From: an uncultured Candidatus Saccharibacteria bacterium
Lineage (GTDB): Bacteria; Patescibacteriota; Dojkabacteria; B142; OLB20
Direction: 5' to 3'
Assembly: GCA_964420145.1 (NCBI GenBank)
Contig: CAYQRB010000001.1
Coordinates: 1-60,008 of the forward strand
Length of the DNA: 60,008 nt
In this document: positions 449 through 14,969 of the stretch, piece after piece
Position numbering within the stretch: the first letter of the stretch is position 1
Layout: every line of letters starts with the position of its first letter
Made by a program: the position numbers and the translations under genes
The notes under the pieces: generated by a model
Told to the model about the DNA's origin: nothing
Databases searched by the model: none
What the model saw: only the letters and a program-made list of their open reading frames with translations

Positions 449-1179
449 AAAAACCTATCTTATTTCTTGTGATAGCTGGATTATCCCTGTATTTACTCTT
501 ATCTCCAGTTAGTGCGATAAGTGATCCTACAAACTATCCGTACAAAAACTCCCCCAAAGGACAGGTTGATAAATGGGCTTTTTACACTCGTTATTGTACT
601 TCGTATTCTGCTTATAGAGGAAGTCTTATAGTTGCAAACTTTCACAATACTATGAAAGGTCCCAACGGGAAATTCGGTAATTTTGGCAATGCTAATAACT
701 GGGACAATAACGCTAGGAATATAGGCTATACTGTTACAACAACACCTACTGCCGGAGCTATAGCAGTTTGGGAAGCAAGAGCAGGTAACTCTGGATCTGT
801 CGGGCATGTAGCTTATGTTGAAAAAGTAAATTCAAATAATACTTTTAATATTTCTGAATATAACTGGAACTATGGTGATGGAAATTATAATATTAGAAAT
901 AACTTATCTGTTATTTCAGGATTGAGTTTTATAGTGTTAGGAAATCCAAACAATACCTGTCTCCCACCCACACAAGGAGATTGGGTTATAGATGGAGGCA
1001 AAAACTGTGAGTTATCCAGCAACACCACACTTACTGGAAACCTCACTATCACAGATAATAGTAGCCTCACTCTCAAAGGAAACACACAACTAAATATAAA
1101 TCTGAAAGATAATAAAATAGAAGTTAAAAATAACAGTAATTTATACATCAAAGATAGTGCGAGAATAAACCAATTATGA
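445..1179 (+). CDS. secreted CHAP-domain peptidoglycan hydrolase with beta-helix-like C-terminal repeats
   Basis: Signal peptide MKKPILFLVIAGLSLYLLLSPVSA. CHAP-type Cys context YTRYCTSYSAYR and His context GHVAYVEKV...ISEYNW. C-terminal N/T-rich repeats NTTLTGNLTITDNSSLTLKGNTQLNINL. Confidence 0.75.
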   Translation: MKKPILFLVIAGLSLYLLLSPVSAISDPTNYPYKNSPKGQVDKWAFYTRYCTSYSAYRGSLIVANFHNTMKGPNGKFGNFGNANNWDNNARNIGYTVTTTPTAGAIAVWEARAGNSGSVGHVAYVEKVNSNNTFNISEYNWNYGDGNYNIRNNLSVISGLSFIVLGNPNNTCLPPTQGDWVIDGGKNCELSSNTTLTGNLTITDNSSLTLKGNTQLNINLKDNKIEVKNNSNLYIKDSARINQL

Positions 1180-1977: not shown

Positions 1978-2778
1978 CTACACCGACATAGAAGCTCTTT
2001 TCCCACTCTTTGTCCTCAAAGATTCAAATACTCGTGCGGTTTTATAGTCTTTAGGATAAAACCTCACCAAAATAAATCTATTATCAAATTGAACCTCACT
2101 CATAGTAATCAGTATCGAAAGGGTTTTCCCACAGAACTCATAATAGAAATCATCTCCTAAAGAGAGATCTTCCTCTGTTACCAAATACTCGTGCCAAACT
2201 CGATTAAATAGAGGGTTTTGCTTCAAACGATTTACCTCCTCAATAGTACTTGTTTCTAAACGATATTTACCTATCATTTTTCTGTATCTCCATACCTGTT
2301 TTTTGACAACTTCTAGTAACTTATCTTTAGGAACTTTCTCTATGATTTTCATCTCTGGAGAAAATAGAACCTGCATATAGGTCTCTCCTATCAACAACTT
2401 CCTCTGATCTTCAGAAATATCAAACAGTCTTAAAGTTAAGTCATTGCAATACCATATACGAAATGTTGAATCTATTATATAAGCAGGAAAATCAGTTTCT
2501 GATAAGTTCTTTTTTAATCTATCAATTATACAATCAATATCCCCTCTGGAGGGATACACCGAGTTAAATCCAATAAGATAATTAAACTCTGAGGAATCAA
2601 GGCGTAAAAAGGTAGATATTCTATTTAGTGTTTCTTTAGTAGGATTTATTACATTGTTTTCTATCCTACTTATAGTACCAAAAGAAAGTCCTGTTTCAAT
2701 CTCGACTTTAGTTTGGCTTATTTTTCTATCTTCACGAAAAGCGTACAATTTCCGTCCTAGTGGAAGTTCTTCTATCAT
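1978..2778 (-). CDS. XRE-family helix-turn-helix transcriptional regulator with C-terminal sensor-like domain
   Basis: N-terminal HTH ISQTKVEIETGLSFGTISRIENNVINPTKETLNRISTFL is typical of Cro/C1-XRE. A further ~190 aa C-terminal domain is of unknown type. Confidence 0.75.
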   Translation of the reverse strand: MIEELPLGRKLYAFREDRKISQTKVEIETGLSFGTISRIENNVINPTKETLNRISTFLRLDSSEFNYLIGFNSVYPSRGDIDCIIDRLKKNLSETDFPAYIIDSTFRIWYCNDLTLRLFDISEDQRKLLIGETYMQVLFSPEMKIIEKVPKDKLLEVVKKQVWRYRKMIGKYRLETSTIEEVNRLKQNPLFNRVWHEYLVTEEDLSLGDDFYYEFCGKTLSILITMSEVQFDNRFILVRFYPKDYKTARVFESLRTKSGKRASMSV

Positions 2779-2917: not shown

Positions 2918-3376
2918 TTAAGGAGTACATACTTCTGCGAAGAAAAACCTAAAAACTGGATTTCTAGAAAATTCAACATAACAATCAGATCCACCTCCTA
3001 CCATTACTGCTAAAACATTACCAACTATTACCCACGATAAATAATACAGAGCAAATCCAAGAACCCACTTCCCAAATCGTTTTTTTGCATCTTCTATCTT
3101 GCTTACATCGTCTGTAAAATACAGTCGTGCAATATTTATAAAATACCCCATCCACAGAAACCCACCCAAAGCCCAGGCAGTAACTAACAAATTCACAAAA
3201 ATAAACTCGAACTGCTGTAAAGTAGGTGGACGGCAATTCTCATCTACACTATCTATAGGACAATTCTCCACAAATCCGGTATCTCCTCCCTGAGCCATAA
3301 CAGGAAAGATAGGAATCCCCAAAATAAACAAGAGTAATACAACTGTAACATAGAGCACTAGTATGTTTTTTTTCAT
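2918..3376 (-). CDS. VirB2/TrbC-like two-helix pilin-family membrane protein (152 aa paralog)
   Basis: Signal peptide ending VMAQGG. Cys-containing N-terminal segment. Core is helix - loop TDDVSKIEDAKKRFGK - helix, matching the module shared by the upstream array. Confidence 0.55.
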   Translation of the reverse strand: MKKNILVLYVTVVLLLFILGIPIFPVMAQGGDTGFVENCPIDSVDENCRPPTLQQFEFIFVNLLVTAWALGGFLWMGYFINIARLYFTDDVSKIEDAKKRFGKWVLGFALYYLSWVIVGNVLAVMVGGGSDCYVEFSRNPVFRFFFAEVCTP

Positions 3377-3426
3377 AAGCTTTCTAAATAATACCTAAAG
3401 ATATAATAAGCTATAATCAAAACAAA

Positions 3427-3465
3427 GAAAAGAAAAAGGCTATCAAAGATAGCCTTTTATTTTTT
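3427..3465. terminator. bidirectional rho-independent terminator hairpin
   Basis: AAGGCTATC-AAA-GATAGCCTT (3436-3456) flanked by T-runs on both strands. It sits 36 nt downstream of the 182-aa gene stop. Confidence 0.55.
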
Positions 3466-3501
3466 ATCATAAACTATTTACTGTTCGTTTTATCCGTGTG
3501 T

Positions 3502-4050
3502 TTAGATTGTTCTATTTATACAGTCAGAATCCGTGGGAACACCTGCCTTATATGCCTCCTCACATTTATTACAAGTAGCATCACCAACTCCTCCACTCAT
3601 ACAGGCATCGCAACCCACACTGTTTGGTGCACTCAGGCAAGTCTGAAAAAGTGAGGCATTTGGCTTTGTTGCACCAAAAAATACAAATACCAAAACAATA
3701 CCTACTACACCTATCAACATTGCTGCTATACCCATAAATATGGCCTTAATAGCTTTTTGTGCTTCTTCGATTTTACCTGCATCTCCTTGTGATTGGATAT
3801 ACTTAAAAGCAGCTATCATAGCATATACTACAGCAACCAATACCAACACAGCTAGGGCAATCACTAGACCTACACGAACTCTACTTGTCAGGAATACCGA
3901 TGTTTGAGTCCCATCTGGACCCATAAGATCAAAAATCCCGGTAATTTCTTCAGGTAAAAGTGATGCTCCCCAAACTCCTTGTGGTAAAAGTACCAAAGCA
4001 GATAACACAAAACCGATACCTACTAATACTGATAAGACTCTATCTTTCAT
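3502..4050 (-). CDS. VirB2/TrbC-like pilin-family protein with C-terminal Cys-rich domain (182 aa)
   Basis: Signal peptide. Core TSRVRVGLVIALAVLVLVAVVYAMIAAFKYIQSQGDAGKIEEAQKAIKAIFMGIAAMLIGVVGIVLVFVFF. C-terminal CLSAPNSVGCDACMSGGVGDATCNKCEE...C. Confidence 0.6.
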   Translation of the reverse strand: MKDRVLSVLVGIGFVLSALVLLPQGVWGASLLPEEITGIFDLMGPDGTQTSVFLTSRVRVGLVIALAVLVLVAVVYAMIAAFKYIQSQGDAGKIEEAQKAIKAIFMGIAAMLIGVVGIVLVFVFFGATKPNASLFQTCLSAPNSVGCDACMSGGVGDATCNKCEEAYKAGVPTDSDCINRTI

Positions 4051-4080
4051 TATTATTAAATTAAAAGAATAAAATATAAA

Positions 4081-4362
4081 TTATCTACATAAATTATTAA
4101 ACTGTATTTGCTCCCCCGGGTCAAGTGTCTCTCCTCCTGAAATTCTCGTAGAAAAAGTTTCACAAGTATTACAGTTTCCACCAGCTAAACCATCGACTTT
4201 ACAGCTATCACACCCCGGGCTATCTGGAGCACTTAGGCAAGTTTGAAATAGATTTGGTTCTACTGAACCGGCTCCAAAAAACACAAATACCAAAACCACC
4301 CCGACAATGACGAATAACACAAGACCTATACCTACTAATACTAACAAGACTCTATTTTTCAT
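4081..4362 (-). CDS. truncated/chimeric pilin-array paralog (93 aa) with a signal-anchor fused directly to a Cys-rich domain
   Basis: The N-terminus MKNRVLLVLVGIGLVL resembles that of the 182-aa gene. The rest (VLVFVFFGAGSVEPNLFQTCLSAPDSPGCDSC...QFNNLCR) is a near copy of the C-terminus of the 189-aa gene. The central helix-loop core is missing. Confidence 0.5.
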   Translation of the reverse strand: MKNRVLLVLVGIGLVLFVIVGVVLVFVFFGAGSVEPNLFQTCLSAPDSPGCDSCKVDGLAGGNCNTCETFSTRISGGETLDPGEQIQFNNLCR

Positions 4363-4382
4363 TACAAAGAATAGAATATAAA

Positions 4383-4952
4383 TTATCTACATAAGTTATT
4401 AAACTGTATTTGCTCACCTGGATCAAGTGTCCCTCCTCGTGAAATTCTTGTAAAGAAAGTTTCACAAGTATTACAATTTCCACCAGCTATCCCCTCAGCT
4501 CTACAACTATCACACCCCAGGCTATTGGGAGCACTTAGGCAAGTTTGAAATAGATTTGGTTCTACTGGACTGGCTCCAAAAAACACAAACACCAAAATCA
4601 CCCCAACAATGGCGATCATCATCGCAGCAATCCCAAAAAATATTGCCTTAATAGCTTTTTGTGCTTCTTCAATTTTCCCAGGATCACCTTGAGATTGTAT
4701 ATACTTAAATGACGCTACCAACGCATACACAACAGCAACCACAATAATCAATCCTAGCGCAATAAACAAAGCTACTCGTACCCTACTAGTAATAAATGCA
4801 GCAGTACCAGTTCCTTGTGGACCAAGTAAATCAAAAATATCTAAGATTTGCCCCGGTAAAAAAGACGGATCTATCTGTGCGTAAGCACTAACGGGAAAAA
4901 GACTTAGCATGAATAAGATAATTAAGAGGCTAACTAGTATATATTTTTTCAT
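4383..4952 (-). CDS. VirB2/TrbC-like pilin-family protein with C-terminal Cys-rich domain (189 aa)
   Basis: Signal peptide ending VSAYAQ. The core is nearly identical to the 182-aa paralog (FKYIQSQGDPGKIEEAQKAIKAIFFGIAAMMI). C-terminal CLSAPNSLGCDSCRAEGIAGGNCNTCETF...NNLCR. Confidence 0.6.
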   Translation of the reverse strand: MKKYILVSLLIILFMLSLFPVSAYAQIDPSFLPGQILDIFDLLGPQGTGTAAFITSRVRVALFIALGLIIVVAVVYALVASFKYIQSQGDPGKIEEAQKAIKAIFFGIAAMMIAIVGVILVFVFFGASPVEPNLFQTCLSAPNSLGCDSCRAEGIAGGNCNTCETFFTRISRGGTLDPGEQIQFNNLCR

Positions 4953-5013
4953 AAACTTCTTACTAAACTAATGAATTCTAAAACAATTCTAAAAAAATAG
5001 CAAAATTATAAAA

Positions 5014-5712
5014 TTAAGGTGCACACTTCATACCACCACCGGAATTCATACACGATAGACCGCCACAACAATCTGCATCAGAGCTACAATGAGAGCCTGC
5101 CCCCTTACATGTACTAGAAGGAACCCCACCCAAAGATTTACTACTGTTTACACTACATCCAGAAGGAGGAGAGGAAGAAAACCTTACCACATCAATATAT
5201 TGTTTCCCTCCATTTTCACAACAAATAACATACATACTGGCTGCAGAAGGATTAGCTTTGCGAAAATCACTTGTCATTTGCATATAGGATATTCTTTTCC
5301 CTCCTTCAACTTTTCCCTGAAAATAAAATCTACCTGAAGCAGGACCTCCACTCGCACATTGCTGAAGGTTATCGACCCAGTTCCAAGGAGCACCAACACC
5401 TACAAATACCCCGACCAAAGAAATAACTGCAAAAAATAGAAGAAAATAAGTAATACCTATCCATACACTTTTAATAGTTTTCCAACCCTTTTCGATTTTT
5501 TGAGTATCTCCAAGACTAGAAATAATACTATAACCACCATAAAGAGAAAAACCAACCCAAACAATTACCAGAATAGTTATAAAAACAACTAAGCCCTGTC
5601 CAATAGCAGAGAAAATCCCTTTCTCAAAAAATCCTCCATAAGAAGGGAGATCTAAGAATATTTCTGAATCGGGAATTCCGACTTGATTGTATATACCAGT
5701 TAATTTATCCAT
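5014..5712 (-). CDS. pilin-family paralog (232 aa) with large C-terminal Cys-rich domain ending in a knottin-like motif
   Basis: No cleavable signal peptide is apparent. Core LVVFITILVIVWVGFSLYGG...SLGDTQKIEKGWKTIKSVWIGITYFLLFFAVISLVGVF. C-terminal CKGAGSHCSSDADCCGGLSCMNSGGGMKC. Confidence 0.55.
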   Translation of the reverse strand: MDKLTGIYNQVGIPDSEIFLDLPSYGGFFEKGIFSAIGQGLVVFITILVIVWVGFSLYGGYSIISSLGDTQKIEKGWKTIKSVWIGITYFLLFFAVISLVGVFVGVGAPWNWVDNLQQCASGGPASGRFYFQGKVEGGKRISYMQMTSDFRKANPSAASMYVICCENGGKQYIDVVRFSSSPPSGCSVNSSKSLGGVPSSTCKGAGSHCSSDADCCGGLSCMNSGGGMKCAP

Positions 5713-5726
5713 TCAACTCATATAAT

Positions 5727-6449
5727 TTAAGGTGCAGGTAATAAACAGTATCTGATATCTGTGCCTCCTGGGCTACGACAAACATAACCAGGTTCACAAA
5801 CAACATATCCGACACCACTACACTGTTTAGAATGTCCAATAACTCTAGGTTGCGGAACAATCGAAATATCAAATAAACTCCCTGTCAAGCCGACAACTAG
5901 TGCTGTAACCTGTACAATTGCAATAAACAAAAAAGTAATTAAAGCACCTAGTACTGCATTTTTCGCTATTGAGGAAGCTTTTTCTATTTTTTCGGTATTG
6001 TCTGACGCAGTAGATCTCTCCCATACCACCCAGAAAGCTATTATTACCTGTACAAAGATTAGAAAGCTAATCACCGCATAAACACCAAGCCTCACAATAG
6101 TCATCATACAGTATGGATCATCTGGAGGCCTTTGTGCTGGGTCGGGACAAAGCTCTATAGAAAACAGATTAAAGGCGGGTCTTACCTTCTTGGGAACCTC
6201 GGGCCACAAACTTGCTGGATCTAGAGTTTTACATACAGAAGGTTGGCCAAATTCACAACTTTTTCCTCCAGTAACACAGCTTCTGGCACAGGTTTTGTTA
6301 CACACGGGATTACGAAAACCCCCACTAGTCGTATATGCTATGCAAGTCGGTTCTGGGACCAACTCATCCGTACCCTGTGCCTCCACCCTATTCCAGAGCA
6401 AAGGAATAAGAAAGAAAAGTATTATTAAAAAAAATAATTTTTTAAACAT
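5727..6449 (-). CDS. pilin-family paralog (240 aa) with Cys-rich domains on both sides of the two-helix core
   Basis: Signal peptide ending RVEAQG. N-terminal domain contains 10 Cys. Core VYAVISFLIFVQVIIAFWVVWERSTASDNTEKIEKASSIAKNAVLGALITFLFIAIVQV. The C-terminal domain has 4 Cys. Confidence 0.55.
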   Translation of the reverse strand: MFKKLFFLIILFFLIPLLWNRVEAQGTDELVPEPTCIAYTTSGGFRNPVCNKTCARSCVTGGKSCEFGQPSVCKTLDPASLWPEVPKKVRPAFNLFSIELCPDPAQRPPDDPYCMMTIVRLGVYAVISFLIFVQVIIAFWVVWERSTASDNTEKIEKASSIAKNAVLGALITFLFIAIVQVTALVVGLTGSLFDISIVPQPRVIGHSKQCSGVGYVVCEPGYVCRSPGGTDIRYCLLPAP

Positions 6450-6802
6450 TAATTTGTAATCAGCTTAATCTCAAATATGGCGGCGATTGTCTGAATTACT
6501 ATAGGAGCTAGTATTATCAATATAAACCCCGTTGTAGAATACATCAATATTTGCATAGATTTTTTAGCTTTTTCTGGATCGGCACCAGCAGTCTGCCTGG
6601 TATAACCCGCATAAAGTACCATCCCTAAATACACAAGAACGGCGAGACTTCTAACCCATCGACTTATCGTATTAACCGCAGTAGGAAAATCTGCAAAAGC
6701 AGGACCAACAGGATTTGGAATATTGCCACCTTGTGCCACAATCAATGTGGGAGAAATCAATAAAACGATACAGATAACAACTATAATTTTTATTTTAGTC
6801 AT
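6449..6802 (-). CDS. minimal VirB2/TrbC-like pilin (117 aa)
   Basis: Signal peptide ending IVAQGG. Two hydrophobic helices are separated by TRQTAGADPEKAKKSMQ. Size and topology match conjugative-type pilins. The stop overlaps the next start (TAATG). Confidence 0.6.
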   Translation of the reverse strand: MTKIKIIVVICIVLLISPTLIVAQGGNIPNPVGPAFADFPTAVNTISRWVRSLAVLVYLGMVLYAGYTRQTAGADPEKAKKSMQILMYSTTGFILIILAPIVIQTIAAIFEIKLITN

Positions 6803-6806
6803 ATTC

Positions 6807-7943
6807 TTAACTTAAAAAATCAAAAGGTAGAATACTAAGTAAATTAATACCCAGGTATCTTAAAATTGGAATAGCAACAGCCAAAGTTACAAGTGCCACG
6901 ATCGCCGAAACTACCATATCTCTTCCTTCTTGATGTTTTGCAGGGTCAGTACTTTGCATATTTACTGCCGCCATCATAATTCTAACTATAGCAAAACCCG
7001 AGAGTAAACCAAACCCTAATTGAAATAGTCGGGTTATAAATGCATCTCTGTCAGTATTAATACAGCCAAGAGAACTATAGACATATGTTTGAGGTTCTCC
7101 TGAATCATTGGGTGGGTTTTTACCAAAACATTCAAAACATCTCTTTCTCTCTACCTCGTCTAAACGCACACACTGTACTACTGCATTATTTAGGTGTGCA
7201 GCATCTTTTTCTTCTTCTGATACCCATTGGCCAGCAAGACAGTATTTAGTATTATCGCCAATTTTTTGACTATCCCTGGCGTAACACAATTTGTCCGTGA
7301 CATTAGATAGGAGTGGGTTCTTATCAGTATTATTTGGTATGATATCACTATTTATATTGGTAAGACAGCCTAACTGTGGACACTCGTAAACAGGACCACT
7401 TCCACCAACAACTGGTGGACCAGCGTTAAAATCCTTATCTATAGATGGAAGACTATCACTTTTATCTGGTGTTGTTGCATTACCATTGACGCTCTCACAA
7501 AGCGTACCAATCCAATTAGGTTGGTATCCAACAGGACAACAAGTAAAAGTTAGTGTACGAGTAATAGGATGACTTATCGGACAACACTTCTTTCCTATTC
7601 TTAATCTCTTAGACATATCCTTATTATATGGTATAGTTAAGCCTTGCGATAAATCACAGTAAGCCATATTGTTACTTTTGATGGTTCCAATTTCAATATT
7701 TTGTGTAGTTAGACAGGCTCTAGCCTTATTAAGAACTTCAATCATTTTTGTTTTATCTTTTCCAAATATTATTCCCCGTATATCATCTGGTCGTATTTGA
7801 CCAGGGCCACAATGAGACACCTCCACCCATGGCGCACCCGGGGGAGGCCCTGGAGGAGGAGGTACTGCTACTTGTGCAGATACCCTACCTAAATTAGGTA
7901 GAAGCAAAAAACAAAAAATTATAAGTACCAGAAGCTTTCTCAT
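6807..7943 (-). CDS. pilin-family paralog (378 aa) with ~300-aa Cys-rich N-terminal ectodomain
   Basis: Signal peptide ending RVSAQV, then PPPPGPPPGAPW. 16 Cys in the ectodomain. C-terminal core FGLLSGFAIVRIMMAAVNMQSTDPAKHQEGRDMVVSAIVALVTLAVAIPIL. The start overlaps the Clp gene stop (ATGA). Confidence 0.55.
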   Translation of the reverse strand: MRKLLVLIIFCFLLLPNLGRVSAQVAVPPPPGPPPGAPWVEVSHCGPGQIRPDDIRGIIFGKDKTKMIEVLNKARACLTTQNIEIGTIKSNNMAYCDLSQGLTIPYNKDMSKRLRIGKKCCPISHPITRTLTFTCCPVGYQPNWIGTLCESVNGNATTPDKSDSLPSIDKDFNAGPPVVGGSGPVYECPQLGCLTNINSDIIPNNTDKNPLLSNVTDKLCYARDSQKIGDNTKYCLAGQWVSEEEKDAAHLNNAVVQCVRLDEVERKRCFECFGKNPPNDSGEPQTYVYSSLGCINTDRDAFITRLFQLGFGLLSGFAIVRIMMAAVNMQSTDPAKHQEGRDMVVSAIVALVTLAVAIPILRYLGINLLSILPFDFLS

Positions 7944-10522
7944 TGTATTTCGAATTTATCTAAACTATATATCACCATAGTATCCCCACTTTTGATTCTT
8001 TTTTCTATAATCAACTGTGCTATCAAATCTTCTACCTTATCTGTTACCATTCTTCTGAGTTCTCTAGCACCATATAGATTGTTATATCCCAACTCTACTA
8101 AATCACTTAGTAGCTGTGGGCTATACTCAAGTTTAATCCCTTTCTCTGCAATTTTCTCTACGATAGATCTCACCATTAAGTTAGCAATTTCTTCTACTTC
8201 TATTTTAAGCAAAGGCTTAAACATAATCAACTTATCAAAACGGTTTAAAAACTCAATCCTTAAATATTGTCGCAAAGTTGGCATAATCGTCTCTACTACT
8301 TCACTATATCGTCTGCCTTGAGAAACCAAATCGGCTATCTCGTTGGAAGCGATATTGGAAGTAGCGATAATAATAGTATTAGTAAAGATCACCTCTCTAC
8401 CCATACCATCTTTAATCTTTCCCTCATCTAAAACCTGCAAGAATAAATCTAACACCCTTGGATTAGCTTTTTCGATTTCATCAAGAAGTATAAGTGAATA
8501 TGGTTTCGCACGCACTGCTTCAGTAAGGTATCCTCCACTAAACTCTCCGTTTTCTTGTATCCCTATTAACCTACCTAAGTTTAGATCCTCGTGATATTCT
8601 GACATATCAAGACGGATCATTTTATCTTCAGCTCCAAAATAGAACTCTGCGACAGTTTTTGCTAGCTCAGTTTTGCCAACCCCAGTTGGACCAAAAAACA
8701 AAAAACTTGCAACTGGACGGTTTTTACTCGTCAGACCCGCACGAGAACGACGAAGAGCAGAAGCAACTGCGTCTACTGCCTGATCTTGACCTACCACTCG
8801 CTTATGTAATTCCTCCTCTAATCTCATCAAGAAGTCCGACTCCGTTGCCCCGATTGCTCCGATCTCAACCCCTACTTTGCTTGCAACCAATCTATCTACC
8901 ACATCTTTGTCTACCAAAGATTTGCCTTCAGCCAATGTTTTAGAGATTGCTTCTTCGAGTAGATCTATTGCCTTGTCAGGCAAAACTCTTTCAAAAGCAA
9001 ACTTATGAGACAACTCCACCGCCCTATCCGCAGCTTCAAAAGCGATCTTAACTTTATAAGTTTTCTCTAATGTAGGGATAAAGTCAAACAAAATTTGTAG
9101 TGCTATTTCGTCAGTAGGGATTTCCATTGTCATCTTATTAAATAACGAGTCAAGAGCTTTGAACGGCTTGATATGCCTGGTGTATCCCTCGACTGAGCTT
9201 GTAGCAACTATTCTGATCTTATGAATATCCATTGCGTCAGTAAGTAAATTTACTACCTCAGCACTTAACTCTTTTTTAACATTAACCAATTGATCTAAAT
9301 CATCTATTACTAAAATTATATTTTTCGCTCTTGCAACCTCTTGGATTATACTCTCTACTTCTGTTTTAAATTGCTGTTCGTTTTTAGCCAGAGCATAGGC
9401 TCTATTAAAGTCAAACCCTACTAATCGCATATCTTGTATAATTTTAGGGACATCTTCAACTACCATTTTTATTCCGAGATTTTTTATAAATGTGGTTTTT
9501 CCAACTCCTGGCTGACCCAAAACAAGAGATGCACTCGTTTCTCCAGAAGTAACCATCTCAATAAGCCTTTGTAATTCCGCTTCTCTAGCATAAGAAAGTT
9601 CAAAATCTCCTTTGACGATTTCTGCCGTAAAATCACGAGAGTATTTCACCAAACTCGGAGAAAACACAGAGGTATATGCACGGTTCACGGTAGAGGTTGG
9701 CTTTAGCACACTCTTTTTTTGGATAATATCTAAATACCTGCTTCGTTTACTCAGATTTTGTGCCCACAAAAGCATTGCCTTCACTTCGTTTTCCCCAACC
9801 TCAATCTCTAGCAATAATTGTTTTAGATCGGTTAAACATAAATAAATAAATACCGCTAATTCATCAATTCTATTGAAATTATTATCTATTGCAAGAATAA
9901 AGCTACCTTTCAAGGTTTCTACAAGCATATCCTCTATACTACCCGATTCAACAGTACCCATCTTACTAGCAATATTCTCCAGCCCCTTTTCATCTATCCC
10001 CAACCTAGAAGATGCCATCTTCACAACGGACATAGTGGATAACCCCAATAGTAGATCCTTGCCATAAGACACCTGTTTCTTATTAGCAAGTATTTCATCT
10101 ATTATATTTATTAAATCAATATCAAGATATTGTGTTATTTCTATAGGAGAAAGTATCTTACCAGCATCAACATCACTTTTTAGCTTACCGAGATCTTTAC
10201 TACTAAATCTATCGAGAAATACACTACGATCACGAGTCAGATAAACCCCATAGGTAAAAATACCTACCCCCAAATATATAAATAGCCTTGGTAGGTCATC
10301 AACTTTAGTTATCTGAGAAATGATAAACTCTTGATGAAAATAAGCTTCGTATAAAGTTACCAAAGAAAATAACAATACTGTTGAAAAGACCAAAACCCAA
10401 CCTATAAGTTTTTCTAGTTTCTCTAGTTTTTTACGAATTCCGAACTCCCGCCCAAGATATCCTAGATCTACTTTTAGTGTCATCTTTTCATATTTTCCTT
10501 GAGACATCTTTGTACCCTCCAT
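7940..10522 (-). CDS. membrane-anchored Clp/Hsp100-family double AAA+ ATPase (ClpB/ClpC-like)
   Basis: Two N-terminal TM helices. Clp_N-like repeat (LLLGLSTMSVVKMASSRLGIDEKGLENI). D1 has Walker A GQPGVGKTT and Walker B VIDDLDQL. D2 has FFGPTGVGKTELAK and LILLDEIEKANPRV, plus the C-terminal LRIEFLNRFDKLIMFKPL signature. Confidence 0.85.
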   Translation of the reverse strand: MEGTKMSQGKYEKMTLKVDLGYLGREFGIRKKLEKLEKLIGWVLVFSTVLLFSLVTLYEAYFHQEFIISQITKVDDLPRLFIYLGVGIFTYGVYLTRDRSVFLDRFSSKDLGKLKSDVDAGKILSPIEITQYLDIDLINIIDEILANKKQVSYGKDLLLGLSTMSVVKMASSRLGIDEKGLENIASKMGTVESGSIEDMLVETLKGSFILAIDNNFNRIDELAVFIYLCLTDLKQLLLEIEVGENEVKAMLLWAQNLSKRSRYLDIIQKKSVLKPTSTVNRAYTSVFSPSLVKYSRDFTAEIVKGDFELSYAREAELQRLIEMVTSGETSASLVLGQPGVGKTTFIKNLGIKMVVEDVPKIIQDMRLVGFDFNRAYALAKNEQQFKTEVESIIQEVARAKNIILVIDDLDQLVNVKKELSAEVVNLLTDAMDIHKIRIVATSSVEGYTRHIKPFKALDSLFNKMTMEIPTDEIALQILFDFIPTLEKTYKVKIAFEAADRAVELSHKFAFERVLPDKAIDLLEEAISKTLAEGKSLVDKDVVDRLVASKVGVEIGAIGATESDFLMRLEEELHKRVVGQDQAVDAVASALRRSRAGLTSKNRPVASFLFFGPTGVGKTELAKTVAEFYFGAEDKMIRLDMSEYHEDLNLGRLIGIQENGEFSGGYLTEAVRAKPYSLILLDEIEKANPRVLDLFLQVLDEGKIKDGMGREVIFTNTIIIATSNIASNEIADLVSQGRRYSEVVETIMPTLRQYLRIEFLNRFDKLIMFKPLLKIEVEEIANLMVRSIVEKIAEKGIKLEYSPQLLSDLVELGYNNLYGARELRRMVTDKVEDLIAQLIIEKRIKSGDTMVIYSLDKFEIQ

Positions 10523-10531
10523 AAACTTACT

Positions 10532-10867
10532 TTAGATATTAGACATATAAGATATAACTCCATACAATGGCATTATTGGCAACATCAAGTAAACTCCGAT
10601 GATTCCTATAAAAAGAAATAGTAATATAGCTCCCACAAAAGTGCCAAATAATACCCAGGTCAATCTGATTGGAAATGCTATTAGTCTTCCCATTCTACTA
10701 TAATCCTGATACAACGGCTGAAAAAGATTTTTCAACATTGGACCTATATTGAGAATATTTAGGATAAAGATCCAAGTCTCTAAGACCTTACCAACCATAG
10801 CCTTAGCCTGAACAAAATACCACCAAATAAAATAATTTATGAAATAACGATTAAGTAGATTTATCAT
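10532..10867 (-). CDS. small polytopic membrane protein (111 aa), first gene of the Clp-pilin operon
   Basis: Three hydrophobic segments. There is a 9-nt gap to the Clp start, and it lies directly downstream of a predicted promoter. Confidence 0.5.
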   Translation of the reverse strand: MINLLNRYFINYFIWWYFVQAKAMVGKVLETWIFILNILNIGPMLKNLFQPLYQDYSRMGRLIAFPIRLTWVLFGTFVGAILLFLFIGIIGVYLMLPIMPLYGVISYMSNI

Positions 10868-10887
10868 AGATTTAAGAAGTTTCTTTT

Positions 10888-10916
10888 ATTATAAAGGAAA
10901 AAAGAGGGAAATGTAA
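10888..10916 (-). promoter_or_regulatory. sigma70-like promoter (TTACAT-17 nt-TATAAT) for the 111-aa/Clp/pilin operon
   Basis: On the minus strand, TTACAT (10916-10911), a 17-nt spacer, then TATAAT (10893-10888). The -10 element ends ~20 nt upstream of the ATG at 10867. Confidence 0.5.
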
Positions 10917-10930
10917 GAAAAGGGATATAC

Positions 10931-10970
10931 AAGAAAAATCCCCCGATATTACGAATAATATCGAGGGATT
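10931..10970 (-). terminator. rho-independent terminator of groES-groEL
   Basis: Minus strand AATCCCTCGATATT-ATTCGT-AATATCGGGGGATT (14-bp stem with one G-U pair) followed by TTTTTCTTGT. It begins 20 nt after the groEL stop. Confidence 0.75.
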
Positions 10971-12925: not shown

Positions 12926-12968
12926 AGGTATTCTACTTTAATAAATAAATTAGAAAAAACGAGAGTAT

Positions 12969-12995
12969 TTAGCACTCTAACCGTCTTTGTGATAG
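12969..12995. promoter_or_regulatory. CIRCE-like inverted repeat (one perfect arm, one degenerate)
   Basis: TTAGCACTC-N9-TTGTGATAG versus the consensus TTAGCACTC-N9-GAGTGCTAA. It lies 44-70 nt upstream of the groES ATG, just downstream of a putative promoter. Confidence 0.45.
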
Positions 12996-13002
12996 AGTTG
13001 AA

Positions 13003-13032
13003 ATTCTATGCTATATGTTAGCTTCTTGTCAA
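13003..13032 (-). promoter_or_regulatory. sigma70-like promoter of groES-groEL (TTGACA-18 nt-TAGAAT)
   Basis: Minus strand TTGACA (13032-13027) and TAGAAT (13008-13003). The CIRCE-like element follows within ~10 nt. Confidence 0.45.
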
Positions 13033-13064: not shown

Positions 13065-14969
13065 CTATTTAAATCTTATTCTGTTAAGGTCGTTTGGAAT
13101 TTTTCTCCAACTTTCAGGAATAAAGCTAGGCTGGTAAAATATTGTTACCTTATCAATCTGTTCAAGGTTTTCAAGATATTCCTTAGCTTCCAATAGACTT
13201 TTTCCAGCAATATTGGATTTTAATTCTTCAAATTTAAGACTTTCATTGACTTCCCCTTGTGCGTATAGATCAAATGATACTTTACTACCATTGACCTTTA
13301 TATTTTTAATACTAAAATCACCTATTTCCACCTCTGCTTCAGTAGTAGCACCTTTACTTTTTTTAATAATAAACTCAGCCAAAGACTTTATATCCGATTC
13401 TCGTAACTTTGTAGCTGTAACTTTCATCCTAAGATCTATAGAAAAACTCTCAGCCTCTTCCCCAGTAGGTACACTTTGAGTAAAACTTACTTCTTCATAT
13501 CGTTCACTCCCTTCCAAAAGTTTCTCTCCTTTTCCTAGCTCTTTCTGAAGGTTGGTATTTAAAGTTCCTTTGATAGCAGTCTCTAGTGCCATCCTTGCTT
13601 TTTGTACATCTTCCGCAGTAACTATGACAATATCCTCAGTTGTACCACCAGCAATATCTCTATGACCATACCCTATAAGTTGCTCAGTAGTAAAACCCCC
13701 AAACTTAAATGTTCTACTTCTAGGATCTTTTATATTATATTTTTCGCCAAATTCTTTTGCTTTTATAGGGACATCTCGTTGATACTGATCTACGGGTATT
13801 GCAACATTTTCAGTCAACTCATATTGCAAATTGGTAGAAATATCTACCAAAACCTGTCCCGCTGATAGATTAACTGCTGATTCTGTACTTTTATTGCGAA
13901 TATCTATAACTCCTCGTGCAAACTCACCTGTTTGTTTTTTTCCTGTAGGAGTACCGTCTCCTGATGAAGACTCTTCAATACTCACTTCATATCCTGGAAT
14001 TATAAGATTATTACCATCTATATCTTTCGCTGATGTTGAGACTGTAATAGTCTCGTTTATACTCCCTTCCGATTGATTAAAGGTTACAGCAATATCTACC
14101 TTCGACAGATTCCAATAACTATACGCAAACACTCCTCCTGAAATAAATAAGGTTATTAAAAATATTATTCCCAAAATAGCTAATATCTTTTTTAATTTTT
14201 TCTTTCCTTTTTTAGGACCAGTATTTTGAAGTCGTCTATCAATCACATTTGAAGAGCCTTCTTCTCCTCCTTGATCACTAGTATCTACAACGGTTCTTTT
14301 CTCCGATTTTATATAGGATTTTTCTGCATTTTCTAAAGGTTCTTTCTTTTCCATACCTCTTGGGATATCTTCTACTATCAATTCATTTATATCTCCTCCT
14401 GAAGCAATTACTATTCCTTCTATTTCAACCATTTTGGGTTTTAACCTTGGTTTTTCTCCAAAGATATCAGGTAGTGGAGTAGGATCAATCTCCTCTCTAT
14501 CTTCTAGCTCTATTTGATTTTCCTCGCTATTTTGATTTTCATCTAATACCACCTCCTCCTGTTGAGTCGTTTCCAAATCCTTTTCTATATCCTCTTTACT
14601 TACTTTTTCAGGTATCCTAGAAGCCAGAAGCTCGTTTTTAATCCCTGTTTTATGTTCCTGGAGTTCTTTTTTTATAGATAATGCTTCTTCCCAAGCAAAT
14701 TTATCAACCATACTGATTTTATCTTTTACAACAAGGTTAGCTTTTGAAGCAAGCTTTTTGCCTGTGGGGTTATCTGTAACCATAACCATAAGCTTACTAG
14801 AATCCAGAAGCTGTCTAGACAGTAACTTTAGGCTAATAACACTACTCACTACACTACTACTTGCCGGAATAACTAAAATCACCCTTGAAGTAGGGGCTCT
14901 CAATATCTTCTCTACTACGAAGATAATTTCATCATCAGGTTCAACAAAGATTTTTTCGATTGTTTGCAT
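13065..14969 (-). CDS. bitopic hypothetical protein (634 aa) translationally coupled to the FtsA-like gene
   Basis: ~265-aa acidic cytoplasmic part, one TM helix (ILAILGIIFLITLFISGGVFAY), and a ~345-aa extracytoplasmic part. The start overlaps the FtsA-like stop (TAATG at 14967-14971). Confidence 0.55.
   Translation of the reverse strand: MQTIEKIFVEPDDEIIFVVEKILRAPTSRVILVIPASSSVVSSVISLKLLSRQLLDSSKLMVMVTDNPTGKKLASKANLVVKDKISMVDKFAWEEALSIKKELQEHKTGIKNELLASRIPEKVSKEDIEKDLETTQQEEVVLDENQNSEENQIELEDREEIDPTPLPDIFGEKPRLKPKMVEIEGIVIASGGDINELIVEDIPRGMEKKEPLENAEKSYIKSEKRTVVDTSDQGGEEGSSNVIDRRLQNTGPKKGKKKLKKILAILGIIFLITLFISGGVFAYSYWNLSKVDIAVTFNQSEGSINETITVSTSAKDIDGNNLIIPGYEVSIEESSSGDGTPTGKKQTGEFARGVIDIRNKSTESAVNLSAGQVLVDISTNLQYELTENVAIPVDQYQRDVPIKAKEFGEKYNIKDPRSRTFKFGGFTTEQLIGYGHRDIAGGTTEDIVIVTAEDVQKARMALETAIKGTLNTNLQKELGKGEKLLEGSERYEEVSFTQSVPTGEEAESFSIDLRMKVTATKLRESDIKSLAEFIIKKSKGATTEAEVEIGDFSIKNIKVNGSKVSFDLYAQGEVNESLKFEELKSNIAGKSLLEAKEYLENLEQIDKVTIFYQPSFIPESWRKIPNDLNRIRFK

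What the first reader, a model, noticed from the sequence alone, without database searches (positions are those of the whole stretch)
2918..10916. Clp/Hsp100-led operon carrying eight VirB2/TrbC-like 'pilin' paralogs with cysteine-rich ectodomains: candidate undescribed surface-filament or display system
A sigma70-like promoter (10888-10916) and hairpin terminators (3427-3465, 2884-2909) bracket a run of tightly packed minus-strand genes. Junctions are ATGA at 7940-7943, TAATG at 6449, and gaps of 4, 14, 20, 30 and 61 nt. Gene order is a 111-aa membrane protein, an 860-aa membrane-anchored double-AAA+ Clp ATPase, then proteins of 378, 117, 240, 232, 189, 93, 182 and (after a terminator) 152 aa. 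Seven share one module of hydrophobic helix, short charged loop, hydrophobic helix. The loops read QSQGDAGKIEEAQKAIK, QSQGDPGKIEEAQKAIK, SLGDTQKIEKGWKTIK, ASDNTEKIEKASSIAK, AGADPEKAKKSMQIL, QSTDPAKHQEGRDMV and TDDVSKIEDAKKRFGK. This is the size and topology class of VirB2/TrbC conjugative pilins, and the 117-aa member is a minimal version. Here the core is fused N- and/or C-terminally to Cys-rich domains. No VirB4/VirB6/VirD4, type IV pilus ATPase, secretin or sortase occurs anywhere in the 60 kb. The only energy-transducing protein in the operon is the Clp-type unfoldase. I do not know of a described system with this composition.
Basis: partly seen in the sequence, partly recalled or inferred. 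Interest (0 to 1): 0.85.

Follow-up and report, generated by a model that had tools for sequence, protein, structure and literature searches.

The report
Secretion-type pilin array behind membrane Clp
In an uncultured Dojkabacteria (candidate phyla radiation) genome, one operon puts an unusual membrane-anchored ClpB-like ATPase directly in front of six types of VirB2-like type IV secretion pilins. The pilin array is a feature already described for this group of bacteria. The conserved link to the Clp protein is a lineage-specific twist whose meaning is still open.

Summary
Ten tightly packed minus-strand genes (2918-10867) encode a 111-aa membrane protein, an 860-aa membrane-anchored double-AAA+ Clp-like ATPase, and seven proteins sharing a helix-loop-helix pilin core. 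An eighth protein (93 aa) is a truncated copy.

The core belongs to Pfam T4SS_pilin (PF18895). The 117-aa member passes the curated cut-off, and the others link to it by profile-profile comparison (90-98%).

- The organism is a Candidatus Dojkabacteria (Patescibacteria). Arrays of 2-11 VirB2-like pilins are already described there as part of an essential monoderm-type T4SS.
- Dojkabacteria assemblies carry VirB4 according to the literature.
- By synteny, relatives carry a VirD4-like coupling ATPase about 8 kb downstream of the array.
- The small-protein-plus-Clp pair also occurs in other CPR lineages without adjacent pilins.
- One related lineage keeps all six pilin types without the Clp.

What seems undescribed:
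- All 13 Dojkabacteria-type loci share the order groEL / small protein / Clp / pilins A-F. The Clp stop and the first pilin start overlap by 4 nt in 10 of them.
- The Clp is atypical. It has a degenerate D1 ring, no M-domain, no ClpP loop, and Phe in place of the GYVG tyrosine.
- Most pilins carry Cys-rich ectodomains.

Verdict: a new variant of a known kind, of moderate interest.

The parts
10937..10970 (-). Intrinsic terminator after groEL. It separates groESL from the unit described here.
   Evidence: 15-bp stem followed by a T-run. A distant relative has an equivalent strong terminator between groEL and the small membrane gene (L003 9595-9618).
10888..10917 (-). Sigma70-like promoter candidate (CTTACA-18-TATAAT) for the operon.
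   Evidence: 10 of 12 consensus matches. This is a consensus match only. Promoter-like sites are only modestly enriched over shuffles in this AT-rich region (44 found vs 31.7 expected).
10532..10867 (-). 111-aa small membrane protein, the partner of the Clp-like ATPase (motif NLFxPLYQDY..GR[IL]IAFPIRL).
   Evidence: No Pfam or NCBIfam family. The family has 75 representative clusters of about 100-150 aa. An orthologue sits directly upstream of the Clp in every full-length Dojkabacteria-type locus. It also sits upstream of the Clp in two non-Dojkabacteria CPR loci that lack pilins: L004 ORF 6500-6835 (E 4.6e-16) and L006 6993-7379 (E 1.2e-12).
7940..10522 (-). 860-aa membrane-anchored, ClpB-like double-AAA+ ATPase. 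Layout: beta-hairpin, two TM helices (~29-63, 77-95), a diverged Clp_N-like all-alpha domain (~104-273), a degenerate D1 ring and an intact D2 ring.
   Evidence: Pfam AAA_2, AAA_lid_9 and ClpB_D2-small. Best solved relative is ClpB 1qvr, E 3.7e-113. It scores far below every NCBIfam equivalog cut-off (ClpB 462 vs 1232 bits). The N-domain profile hits only Clp N-domains (best E 0.0026). AF2 model pLDDT 82.6, with no M-domain coiled coil.
6807..7943 (-). Pilin type A (378 aa): signal peptide, an ectodomain of about 290 aa with 16 Cys, and a C-terminal pilin core. Its start overlaps the Clp stop by 4 nt.
   Evidence: PF18895 E 1.5e-3. hhalign A vs B 93.7%. 14 invariant or nearly invariant Cys across 12 orthologues that are otherwise 18-45% identical. 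No solved-structure relative by sequence.
6449..6802 (-). Pilin type B (117 aa): minimal VirB2-like pilin and candidate major subunit.
   Evidence: PF18895 38.6 bits, above the 26.6 cut-off. TrbC PF04956 E 6e-3. NCBIfam Mbov_0395 ICE pilin-like E 4.7e-7. AF2 pLDDT 83.8 with hairpin H39-70/H76-109. Best TM-score among non-significant Foldseek hits is the Aeropyrum pernix conjugation pilus 8dfu.
5727..6449 (-). Pilin type C (240 aa): Cys-rich segments on both sides of the pilin core (12 Cys).
   Evidence: No Pfam pilin hit on its own, but hhalign C vs B gives 98.3%, E 1.1e-14. Orthologues are present in all complete arrays.
5014..5712 (-). Pilin type D (232 aa): no cleavable signal peptide in this genome. 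It has a short acidic N-tail, the pilin core and a C-terminal Cys-rich domain (10 Cys).
   Evidence: PF18895 E 8e-3; weak Dickkopf_N/Toxin_12 Cys-knot-like hits in the tail. hhalign D vs B 95.8%.
4383..4952 (-). Pilin type E, copy 1 (189 aa): loop QSQGDPGKIEEAQKAIK and a C-terminal 6-Cys tail.
   Evidence: hhalign E vs B 90.2% and E vs D 98.4%. NCBIfam ICE pilin-like E 9.7e-6. Relatives carry 1-3 tandem copies.
4081..4362 (-). Short E-type ORF (93 aa): a signal/anchor helix fused directly to the second helix and the 6-Cys tail. It lacks a complete pilin core.
   Evidence: Chimeric at DNA level: nt 1-69 resemble the 182-aa gene and nt 70-302 are 89% identical to the 189-aa gene. Similar short E-type ORFs of 103-111 aa occur at the same position in L003, L011 and L014.
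3502..4050 (-). Pilin type E, copy 2 (182 aa).
   Evidence: 99 identical residues over 164 aligned positions (about 60%) with the 189-aa copy. Group E HMM E 7.5e-82.
3434..3458 (.). Bidirectional hairpin terminator inside the array, between type E and type F.
   Evidence: 11-bp stem with T-runs on both strands. The E-F gap is 109-125 nt only in the window and its closest relatives, and -4 to 16 nt in the others. It is therefore a sub-lineage feature.
2918..3376 (-). Pilin type F (152 aa): N-terminal 2-Cys motif (NC..NC.PPTLQQFE), pilin core, and C-terminal DCY..FFF..VC motif.
   Evidence: PF18895 25.1 bits, E 1.8e-5, just under the cut-off. hhalign F vs B 93.4%. It is the last gene of the array in every complete locus.

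Best explanation
The region is one transcription unit of a Candidatus Dojkabacteria (Patescibacteria/CPR) chromosome. It joins two separable modules.

Module 1 is a small polytopic membrane protein (10532-10867) plus a membrane-anchored ClpB-like double-AAA+ ATPase (7940-10522). D1 has lost its Walker-B glutamate and its pore-loop tyrosine. D2 is catalytically intact. There is no M-domain and no ClpP-docking loop. The same gene pair, with the same overlapping arrangement, occurs in other CPR lineages that have no pilins beside it.

Module 2 (2918-7943) is an array of VirB2-like pilins of Pfam family T4SS_pilin, in six conserved types:
- A: large Cys-rich ectodomain.
- B: minimal core.
- C and D: Cys-rich domains.
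- E: present in 1-3 copies.
- F: closes the array.
This is the kind of array already described for the monoderm-type T4SS of Patescibacteria.

Most likely mechanism (inferred):
- The pilins are inserted by Sec/YidC with both ends outside and the basic loop inside.
- Their ectodomains are disulfide-bonded on the cell surface.
- They are assembled or displayed by the lineage's T4SS, whose VirB4, VirB6 and VirD4-like ATPase are encoded outside this window.
- B acts as the major subunit. A and C-F act as minor or decorating subunits that contact host cells.

The Clp pair is a membrane-proximal proteostasis device that is co-expressed with the pilins. It is not the motor of a new, T4SS-independent filament system.

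Shown: the gene content, the family memberships, the motif states and the conservation pattern. Inferred: topology, assembly by the T4SS, subunit roles, and the role of the Clp.
For: Taxon: the closest named Clp homologues are from Candidatus Dojkabacteria / WS6. Locus L008 comes from a Dojkabacteria MAG.

Pilin identity:
- PF18895 above cut-off for type B, sub-threshold for A, D, E and F.
- All types link to B at 90-98% hhalign probability.
- Hairpin model.

The kind is already known:
- VirB2 arrays of 2-11 genes in Patescibacteria (PMC12102498).
- Six essential, sequence-divergent pilins in the Southlakia T4SS locus.

T4SS elsewhere in the lineage:
- Two Dojkabacteria assemblies are flagged VirB4 = Yes.
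- In L016 a DUF8128/DUF87/T4SS-DNA_transf/TraG-D_C ATPase lies downstream of the same A-F array, after SpoIID and SmpB.
- Full-length homologues hit T4SS-DNA_transf, TraG-D_C and TrwB_AAD_bind.
- L098 is collinear with the Clp-pilin locus L014 at 62-87% amino-acid identity and continues from smpB into this ATPase.
- WS6 OLB21 carries fragments of the same ATPase.

Separability of the two modules:
- The small-protein-plus-Clp pair occurs without pilins in L004 and L006. L005 has a related Clp without pilins.
- L016 has the full pilin set without the Clp.
- L015, from another CPR lineage, has a six-pilin array with neither a Clp nor VirB4 within 10 kb.

Clp atypical features.
Against: - The Clp-pilin junction is the most stable feature of the locus. 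All 13 Dojkabacteria-type loci have the Clp directly before type A, down to about 43% Clp identity. The stop and start codons overlap by 4 nt in 10 of them.
- By contrast, the downstream flank differs among loci, genes have been inserted between groEL and the small gene (L002, L009), and two genes have been inserted between A and B (L099).
- A terminator separates the unit from groESL in two distant relatives. The Clp is therefore transcribed with the pilins, not with the chaperonins.
- All pilin-adjacent Clps keep a Phe in the D2 pore region (x-F-x-GG). The three pilin-free CPR homologues have no aromatic there. This hints at subfamily specialisation.
- I could not show VirB4 or the VirD4-like ATPase on the same contig as a Clp-pilin block. 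The link rests on a published table and on synteny.
- No pilus has been observed in any Patescibacterium, according to the reviews read.
Confidence: 0.6

Rival explanations
1. The Clp pair is a dedicated pilin-handling machine within a T4SS-dependent pilus pathway. The hexamer, anchored in the membrane with its small partner, engages the short cytoplasmic loop or the unprocessed N-terminus of the pilins. It then either extracts them from the bilayer for polymerisation, a job ascribed to VirB4 in Gram-negative systems, or removes misassembled Cys-rich pilins.
For: - The Clp/type-A gene overlap is conserved in 10 of 13 loci, and adjacency in 13 of 13, across deep divergence.
- The unit has its own promoter-like site and a terminator that separates it from groESL.
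- The membrane anchor places the AAA+ rings at the membrane.
- A conserved D2 Phe occurs only in the pilin-adjacent subfamily.
- Insertions occurred on either side of the Clp-A junction but never within it.
Against: - The same two-gene Clp module exists in other CPR lineages with no pilins nearby.
- L016 keeps the whole A-F set without it.
- Pilin arrays elsewhere in CPR lie near virB4 or stand alone.
- D1 is degenerate and the canonical GYVG is absent, so threading activity is unproven.
- 4-nt overlaps are common between unrelated neighbours in this compact genome, for example at 14969 and at 32905-32908.
Confidence: 0.28
2. One reading: an autonomous, previously undescribed surface-filament or display system in which the Clp/Hsp100 ATPase is the only motor and no T4SS is involved.
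For: - No T4SS or T4P ATPase is found in the 60-kb window.
- Clp-pilin adjacency is conserved.
- No paper linking a Clp to pilins in Patescibacteria was found.
Against: - Dojkabacteria are reported to carry VirB4.
- A VirD4-like ATPase lies about 8 kb downstream of the array in relatives, inferred by synteny.
- The pilins belong to the same Pfam family as the T4SS-linked pilins of other Patescibacteria.
- The Clp module is not specific to pilin loci.
- A cytoplasmic AAA+ ring has no known way to polymerise an extracellular filament without a membrane platform such as VirB6/VirB3.
Confidence: 0.07
3. The pilin-like proteins never polymerise. They are bitopic or hairpin membrane anchors that display Cys-rich ectodomains individually on the cell surface, acting as adhesins or host-recognition proteins. 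The VirB2-like core serves only as a membrane anchor.
For: - Five of the six types carry ectodomains of 40-290 residues with conserved Cys frameworks and variable surfaces.
- No pilus has yet been seen in Patescibacteria.
- Short E-type ORFs that keep the anchor and the Cys tail but lack a full core recur in four loci.
Against: - A minimal type B with no ectodomain is conserved in every locus. It is the best PF18895 match, as expected of a major polymerising subunit.
- The helix-loop-helix core is conserved in register across all types, which suggests a shared packing interface.
Confidence: 0.2

Closest known systems
VirB2-like pilin arrays of the Patescibacteria T4SS (e.g. Southlakia epibionticum ML1; Pfam PF18895 T4SS_pilin)
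   Same: Same Pfam family. Tandem arrays of sequence-divergent paralogues: six in Southlakia, six types here. The host is a monoderm CPR bacterium with a reduced chromosome.
   Different: Here the array is not inside a T4SS gene cluster. It lies directly behind a membrane-anchored Clp-like ATPase. Five of the six types carry Cys-rich ectodomains of up to about 290 residues. The papers I read do not mention Cys-rich domain fusions or a Clp neighbour.
VirB2 / TrbC / TraA conjugative pilins of Gram-negative T4SS
   Same: Signal peptide, two hydrophobic helices joined by a short basic loop, and a length of about 70-90 residues for the mature minimal member. Weak TrbC hit (E 6e-3). The best, though non-significant, structural match is an archaeal conjugation pilin (8dfu).
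   Different: No cyclisation or acetylation signals were examined. There is no adjacent VirB3, VirB4 or VirB5. Large ectodomain fusions are, to my knowledge, not typical of VirB2 or TraA.
ClpB / Hsp104 disaggregases
   Same: Two AAA+ modules, an AAA_lid_9 domain and a ClpB_D2-small domain. D2 has Walker A/B, sensor-2 GAR and an Arg finger. There is no ClpP-docking tripeptide. Best solved relative is ClpB 1qvr.
   Different: - No M-domain coiled coil.
- D1 Walker-B Glu is replaced by Asp/Asn.
- The D1 pore-loop Tyr is lost.
- The D2 GYVG is replaced by x-F-x-GG.
- The N-terminus carries two TM helices before a diverged Clp_N-like domain.
- It scores 462 bits against a 1232-bit equivalog cut-off.
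Membrane-anchored AAA+ machines that act on membrane proteins (FtsH, Msp1/ATAD1) and Torsin with its transmembrane cofactors LAP1/LULL1
   Same: An AAA+ ring tethered to a membrane. A small transmembrane partner is encoded alongside, by analogy with Torsin. The pore loops are non-canonical, as I recall for Torsin. The D2 F-x-G resembles the FtsH pore motif, also as I recall.
   Different: No protease domain (unlike FtsH), two rings (unlike Msp1 and Torsin), and no sequence relationship beyond the AAA+ fold. The analogy comes from general knowledge and was not tested here.
Major/minor pilin sets of type IV pili
   Same: One small core subunit plus several larger, differentiated subunits, encoded together and conserved as distinct orthologous types.
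   Different: An unrelated fold and biogenesis. There is no prepilin-peptidase motif and no PilB/PilC in the window.

Membership tests
T4SS_pilin (PF18895) / VirB2-TrbC pilin class | Significant match to the family profile | tested here: met
   Type B scores 38.6 bits against a 26.6-bit cut-off. A, D, E and F are sub-threshold and C has no hit on its own. All six types link to B by profile-profile comparison at 90-98% over the helix-loop-helix.
T4SS_pilin (PF18895) / VirB2-TrbC pilin class | Signal peptide followed by two transmembrane helices joined by a short charged loop | tested here: met
   Hydropathy scan and sequences. AF2 model of B shows helix 2-16, then hairpin 39-70/76-109, pLDDT 83.8. 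Type D lacks a cleavable signal peptide in this genome, and the 93-aa ORF lacks helix 1.
T4SS_pilin (PF18895) / VirB2-TrbC pilin class | Structural similarity to solved conjugative pilins | tested here: inconclusive
   Foldseek against the PDB gave no hit with E < 1. The highest TM-scores were to the Aeropyrum pernix conjugation pilus 8dfu (TM 0.54/0.73, rmsd 2.1 A). A helical hairpin is not discriminating.
T4SS_pilin (PF18895) / VirB2-TrbC pilin class | Genomic association with a VirB4-type T4SS | tested here: inconclusive
   None in the window. Two Dojkabacteria assemblies are VirB4-positive in the literature. A VirD4-like ATPase lies about 8 kb downstream in relatives, by synteny only. No same-contig proof.
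T4SS_pilin (PF18895) / VirB2-TrbC pilin class | Polymerisation into an extracellular pilus | not testable with these tools
   Needs cryo-ET, immuno-EM or multimer modelling with lipid.
ClpB/Hsp104 disaggregase | Two AAA+ modules with the ClpB-type D2-small domain | tested here: met
   Pfam AAA, AAA_lid_9, AAA_2 and ClpB_D2-small. ClpB 1qvr E 3.7e-113.
ClpB/Hsp104 disaggregase | M-domain coiled coil inserted in D1 (the Hsp70 docking site) | tested here: not met
   The two ClpB alignment segments abut, with no insert. The AF2 model shows only short helices at 516-550.
ClpB/Hsp104 disaggregase | Pore-loop tyrosines in D1 (KYRGEF) and D2 (GYVG) | tested here: not met
   D1 reads KNEQQF. D2 reads N--GEFSGG. 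This holds across about 45 orthologues, where Phe (Leu in P0025) replaces the Tyr in D2.
ClpB/Hsp104 disaggregase | Score above the curated equivalog cut-off | tested here: not met
   TIGR03346 scores 462 bits against a 1232-bit cut-off. ClpA, ClpV, ClpK and ClpG also fall below their cut-offs.
ClpA/ClpC/ClpE (ClpP-coupled unfoldases) | ClpP-docking [LIV]-G-[FL] loop in D2 | tested here: not met
   The loop after TSN has ClpB-like length and no IGF/IGL. The ClpC and ClpA controls in the same alignment do have it.
Clp/Hsp100 N-domain (Clp_N) | Double four-helix repeat N-domain | tested here: inconclusive
   No Pfam Clp_N hit. A profile of residues 100-300 finds Clp N-domains in 36 of its 38 hits with E <= 1, including the 36 best (best E 0.0026). 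The AF2 model shows an all-alpha domain at 104-273.
CPR-wide module of a small membrane protein plus a TM-anchored Clp (my own grouping, not a curated family) | A 100-130-aa membrane protein gene immediately upstream of, or overlapping, a Clp-like gene with two N-terminal TM helices and a degenerate D1 | tested here: met
   Window and 10 Dojkabacteria-type loci, plus L004 and L006 from other CPR lineages.

The most novel reading that the evidence does not exclude
In Dojkabacteria, the membrane-anchored and atypical Hsp100 with its small membrane partner is a dedicated pilin dislocase or assembly chaperone. It would feed six specialised VirB2-like subunits into a monoderm T4SS pilus decorated with disulfide-rich ectodomains. 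This would be a new accessory ATPase class for T4SS pilus biogenesis, taking over or supplementing the pilin-extraction role ascribed to VirB4.
Probability: 0.22. Interest if true: 0.75.

Novelty: new variant of a known kind. Interest (0 to 1): 0.45.

Why it matters
Patescibacteria make up a large share of uncultured bacterial diversity. Their T4SS and pilin arrays are the only secretion machinery so far shown to be essential for epibiotic growth (Southlakia). How a monoderm T4SS would build a pilus, and what the many pilin paralogues do, is still open.

This locus adds three usable facts:
1. In one whole class the array consists of six stable, differentiated subunit types: one minimal core plus five with conserved disulfide frameworks. 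It is not a set of fast-varying copies. This argues for a major/minor-subunit architecture rather than antigenic variation.
2. The array is transcriptionally welded to a membrane-anchored Hsp100 relative. This gives a concrete candidate for a pilin-handling factor that can be tested.
3. CPR bacteria carry a widespread two-gene module, apparently undescribed: a small membrane protein plus a TM-anchored Clp with a dead D1 ring and non-canonical pore loops. This is of interest for AAA+ mechanism and for membrane proteostasis in minimal cells.

If the Clp turns out to be unrelated to the pilins, the finding reduces to a well-annotated example of a known pilin array.

Tried and rejected
- **Foldseek of the type B model against the PDB.** Nothing was significant, because a helical hairpin matches many coiled coils. 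It cannot be used for or against VirB2 membership.
- **Full CIRCE (HrcA operator) search, up to 3 mismatches.** No match anywhere in the window. I therefore could not tie the Clp unit, or even groESL, to the classical heat-shock operator. Only a half-site, GAGTGCTAA, lies upstream of groES.
- **Genome-collection scan with the type B alignment.** It returned only 7 loci, all of the same Dojkabacteria type. It gave no non-Dojkabacteria arrays and no VirB4 seed.
- **Metagenome scan with the N-terminal part of the VirD4-like ATPase.**
  - It found 525 relatives, but the 80 loci kept were mostly other CPR lineages.
  - None contained a Clp and only one contained a pilin.
  - I therefore could not place this ATPase and a Clp-pilin block on one contig.
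  - The link is through collinearity of L098 with L014.
- **Apparent fusion in P0092.** By eye, the N-terminus of P0092 (a 760-aa CPR Clp) looked like a fusion with the small membrane protein. The family HMM did not confirm it at E <= 1e-3, so I dropped that claim.
- **Type A ectodomain profile against PDB sequences.** No hit. No structure prediction was possible with an alignment, because only window sequences or homologue-search hits may be submitted.
- **Pseudogene reading of the 93-aa ORF.** I considered that it is merely a pseudogene. Comparable short E-type ORFs recur in four loci, so I leave this open.
- **Phage or mobile-element origin.** I considered and rejected this for the locus. 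Base composition is flat, the neighbours are housekeeping genes, and the locus is syntenic across the class.

Full report
**1. What is in the sequence**

Region 2918-10867 carries ten tightly packed minus-strand ORFs at the stated coordinates.
- A strong hairpin terminator closes groEL at 10970-10937.
- It is followed by a sigma70-like site, CTTACA-18-TATAAT, at 10917-10888.
- The junctions are a 9-nt gap, a 4-nt overlap (Clp stop / 378-aa start), a 4-nt gap, a 1-nt overlap, then gaps of 14, 61, 20, 30 and 125 nt.
- The hairpin at 3434-3458 is a convincing bidirectional terminator.
- The one proposed at 2884-2909 is only a 7-bp AT-rich stem without a T-run.

The window is a housekeeping stretch of a low-GC (about 35%) chromosome. 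It holds ftsA, groES/groEL, yidC, L25, phosphoketolase, acetate kinase and several aminoacyl-tRNA synthetases.

The closest named homologues of the Clp are from Candidatus Dojkabacteria (WS6), a class of Patescibacteria/CPR.

**2. The pilin-like proteins**

Family membership:
- The 117-aa protein passes the Pfam gathering threshold for T4SS_pilin PF18895 (38.6 bits). It gives weak hits to TrbC/VirB2 and to the NCBIfam Mycoplasma-ICE pilin-like family.
- The 152-, 378-, 232-, 182- and 189-aa proteins hit PF18895 below threshold. The 240-aa protein does not hit it alone.

The six types. I collected orthologues from 13 related loci. The array consists of six conserved orthologous types, always in the order A-B-C-D-E(n)-F:
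- A: about 380-540 aa, with a large N-terminal ectodomain.
- B: about 115 aa, the minimal form.
- C: about 240 aa.
- D: about 170-260 aa.
- E: about 185-240 aa, in 1-3 tandem copies.
- F: about 150-280 aa.

Homology among the types:
- Profile-profile comparison links every type to B over the helix-loop-helix. The values are A 93.7%, C 98.3%, D 95.8%, E 90.2% and F 93.4%.
- An AlphaFold2 model of B (pLDDT 83.8) shows a signal helix and a two-helix hairpin.
- Foldseek found nothing significant, as expected for a hairpin. The best TM-scores were to an archaeal conjugation pilin.

Ectodomains:
- Mature Cys counts are even in every type.
- Type A keeps 14 invariant or nearly invariant Cys over a background of 18-45% identity.
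- This is consistent with disulfide-stabilised extracellular domains that have variable surfaces.

The 93-aa ORF:
- It lacks helix 1 and the loop, and it is a DNA-level chimera of the two E copies.
- Similar short E-type ORFs recur in three other loci.
- No other pilin-like ORF exists in the window.

**3. The Clp-like ATPase and its small partner**

General features of the 860-aa protein:
- It has two AAA+ modules and a ClpB-type D2-small domain.
- Its best solved relative is ClpB (1qvr, E 3.7e-113).
- It fails every curated NCBIfam cut-off by a wide margin.

Alignment with ClpB, ClpC and ClpA controls shows the following:
- There is no M-domain.
- There is no ClpP-docking IGF/IGL loop.
- D1 has an intact Walker A, but its Walker-B Glu is replaced (DD/DN/ED).
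- The D1 pore-loop Tyr is lost (KYRGEF becomes KNEQQF).
- D2 has intact Walker A/B, sensor and Arg-finger regions.
- In D2 the GYVG loop is shortened to x-F-x-GG.

The N-terminus:
- It has a short beta-hairpin, two TM helices (~29-63 and 77-95) and an all-alpha domain at 104-273.
- A profile of that domain matches Clp N-domains almost exclusively among solved structures: the 36 best of 38 hits, though weakly (best E 0.0026).

The 111-aa upstream protein has no Pfam or NCBIfam family. It defines a small family of about 100-150-aa membrane proteins (75 representative clusters).

**4. Conservation**

From the Clp side:
- Three loci at 72%, 53% and 45% Clp identity show groES-groEL-small protein-Clp-pilins.

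From the pilin side:
- Seven genome loci and two further metagenome loci (L014, L099) show the same arrangement.
- In total 13 of 13 Dojkabacteria-type loci, including the window, place the Clp directly before type A, with a 4-nt stop/start overlap in 10.

Stability of the junction:
- A terminator between groEL and the small gene is present in the window and in the most distant full locus examined.
- Genes have been inserted between groEL and the small gene (L002, L009) and between A and B (L099). The downstream flank also varies. The small-gene-Clp-A junction never changes.

Evidence that the two modules are separable:
- Three non-Dojkabacteria CPR loci carry related, TM-anchored, D1-degenerate Clps with no pilins nearby. 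In two of them a member of the small-protein family overlaps the Clp start (L004 E 4.6e-16, L006 E 1.2e-12).
- One relative (L016) has all six pilin types (order E,E,A,B,C,D,F) with a glycosyltransferase upstream instead of a Clp.
- Another CPR lineage (L015) has a six-gene PF18895 array beside dnaA, with neither a Clp nor VirB4 within 10 kb.

**5. Is there a T4SS?**

In the window:
- Pfam scans of about 50 ORFs found no T4SS or type IV pilus component.
- tblastn with CPR coupling-protein ATPases found nothing either.

In the literature:
- Quinonero-Coronel et al. (PMC12102498) report VirB2-like pilins in 1,948 VirB4-positive CPR assemblies.
  - The pilins lie near virB4 in only 1,135 of these assemblies.
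  - The authors count 441 arrays of 2-11 pilin genes.
  - The preprint lists Dojkabacteria among the T4SS-bearing groups.
  - Table S1 marks two Dojkabacteria assemblies as VirB4-positive.
- Wang et al. 2023 and a 2025 review describe six essential, sequence-divergent VirB2-like pilins in the Southlakia T4SS locus.

From my own data:
- In L016 an 841-aa protein with DUF8128/DUF87/T4SS-DNA_transf/TraG-D_C lies downstream of the array, after SpoIID and SmpB.
- Full-length homologues match VirD4/TraG/TrwB-type coupling-protein domains.
- WS6 OLB21 carries fragments of the same gene in the same synteny.
- Contig L098 is collinear with the Clp-pilin locus L014 (62-87% amino-acid identity, SmpB 87%). 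It continues from smpB through a 174-aa gene into this ATPase.
- L003, L011 and L012 show the SbcD-SbcC-SpoIID run after the array. In L020 the same run leads to the same ATPase.
- A T4SS-type ATPase therefore most probably lies about 8-10 kb downstream of the array in several Dojkabacteria. I could not place both on one contig, and the window's own sub-lineage has a different downstream flank.

**6. Mechanism**

Shown:
- The pilins are PF18895 members with a conserved core.
- The array has a fixed set of differentiated subunits.
- The Clp has one intact ring (D2), is membrane-anchored and is encoded with a small membrane partner.
- Clp and pilins form one tightly coupled gene block in this class.

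Inferred:
- The pilins insert with the N- and C-termini outside and the lysine-rich loop inside.
- Their ectodomains are oxidised outside the cell.
- The T4SS encoded elsewhere extracts and polymerises them. B forms the shaft and A and C-F act as minor or decorating, host-contacting subunits.

The role of the Clp is the open point. I give about 0.6 to the composite reading: a known pilin array plus a CPR-wide membrane proteostasis module, co-expressed but not an autonomous machine. I give about 0.28 to a dedicated pilin dislocase or chaperone role.

For the dedicated role:
- The junction is invariant.
- The unit has a separate promoter and terminator.
- Only the pilin-adjacent Clps keep an aromatic residue in the D2 pore region.

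Against the dedicated role:
- The two modules are separable elsewhere.
- The ATPase has non-canonical pore loops.
- Gene overlaps are frequent in this compact genome.

A T4SS-independent, Clp-driven filament gets about 0.07.

**7. Comparison with known systems, and novelty**

- The array is a member of the known Patescibacterial VirB2-like pilin arrays.
- The Clp is a divergent Hsp100. It fails the defining ClpB features (M-domain, pore tyrosines, curated score) and the defining ClpA/ClpC feature (ClpP loop).
- I found no paper describing a membrane-anchored Clp in Patescibacteria or a Clp next to pilins. The search covered open-access text only.

The finding is therefore a new variant of a known kind. 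Three things are worth recording: the conserved Clp-pilin operon, the six-type architecture with Cys-rich ectodomains, and the CPR-wide atypical Clp module. Interest 0.45.

Noticed in passing
window 445-1179 (+): A secreted CHAP-domain protein (Pfam CHAP E 1.1e-16) with a repeat-rich, beta-helix-like C-terminus lies about 1.7 kb beyond the last pilin gene. VirB1-type cell-wall hydrolases of monoderm T4SSs contain CHAP domains (PMC12102498), so it could be a T4SS-associated peptidoglycan hydrolase.
   Followed up: partly
L004 6500-9506; L006 6993-10044; L005 6946-9228: A module that is widespread in CPR and that I did not find described: a small membrane protein gene overlapping a Clp-like gene. 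The Clp has two N-terminal TM helices, a degenerate D1 ring and no aromatic residue in the D2 pore loop. No pilins are nearby. The L004 small ORF had not been called as a gene in the source annotation.
   Followed up: partly
L016 14587-15702; L020 9911-12409; L063 9962-12445; L098 6347-7408: A VirD4/TraG-like ATPase of about 830 aa with an N-terminal DUF8128 domain follows smpB in several CPR loci (7 of the 80 loci kept). The metagenome scan found 525 relatives. It lies downstream of a conserved run: SpoIID, a bPH-like protein, DUF5657 and a beta-propeller protein of about 750-850 aa.
   Followed up: partly
window 4081-4362; L003 16127-16438; L011 and L014 equivalents: Short E-type ORFs (93-111 aa) keep a signal/anchor helix and the 6-Cys tail but lack a full pilin core. 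They recur at the same array position in four loci. The window copy shows recent gene conversion with the neighbouring full-length E gene (89% nucleotide identity).
   Followed up: partly
L099 5650-9986: In one divergent relative, two non-pilin genes are inserted between pilin types A and B. One encodes an acidic 162-aa protein and the other a Cys-free 1281-aa protein. Their function is unknown.
   Followed up: no
window 18163-19482 (-): A 439-aa AAA+ protein with a Lon-type lid domain but no protease domain. It is conserved at the same place in relatives (L001, L003). It is a second unusual AAA+ protein in this neighbourhood.
   Followed up: no
window 13065-14969 (-): A 634-aa protein without any Pfam or NCBIfam hit. 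It is always encoded between the ftsA-like gene and groES in Dojkabacteria loci (619-658 aa in L001-L003, L014).
   Followed up: no
window 12965-13032 (-): The groES promoter-like site (TTGACA-18-TAGAAT) is followed by an exact right half of the CIRCE operator (GAGTGCTAA). No full CIRCE element exists anywhere in the window, even allowing 3 mismatches.
   Followed up: yes
window 1978-2778 (-): A 266-aa XRE-family HTH protein lies directly downstream of the array on the same strand. HTH genes also lie after the array in L001 and L003. It is a possible local regulator.
   Followed up: no
window 53430-57254 (-): A copper-type P-type ATPase with an HMA domain sits next to an HMA-DsbD_2 (CcdA-like) thiol-disulfide membrane protein. 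The latter could matter for oxidising the many extracellular cysteines of the pilins.
   Followed up: no
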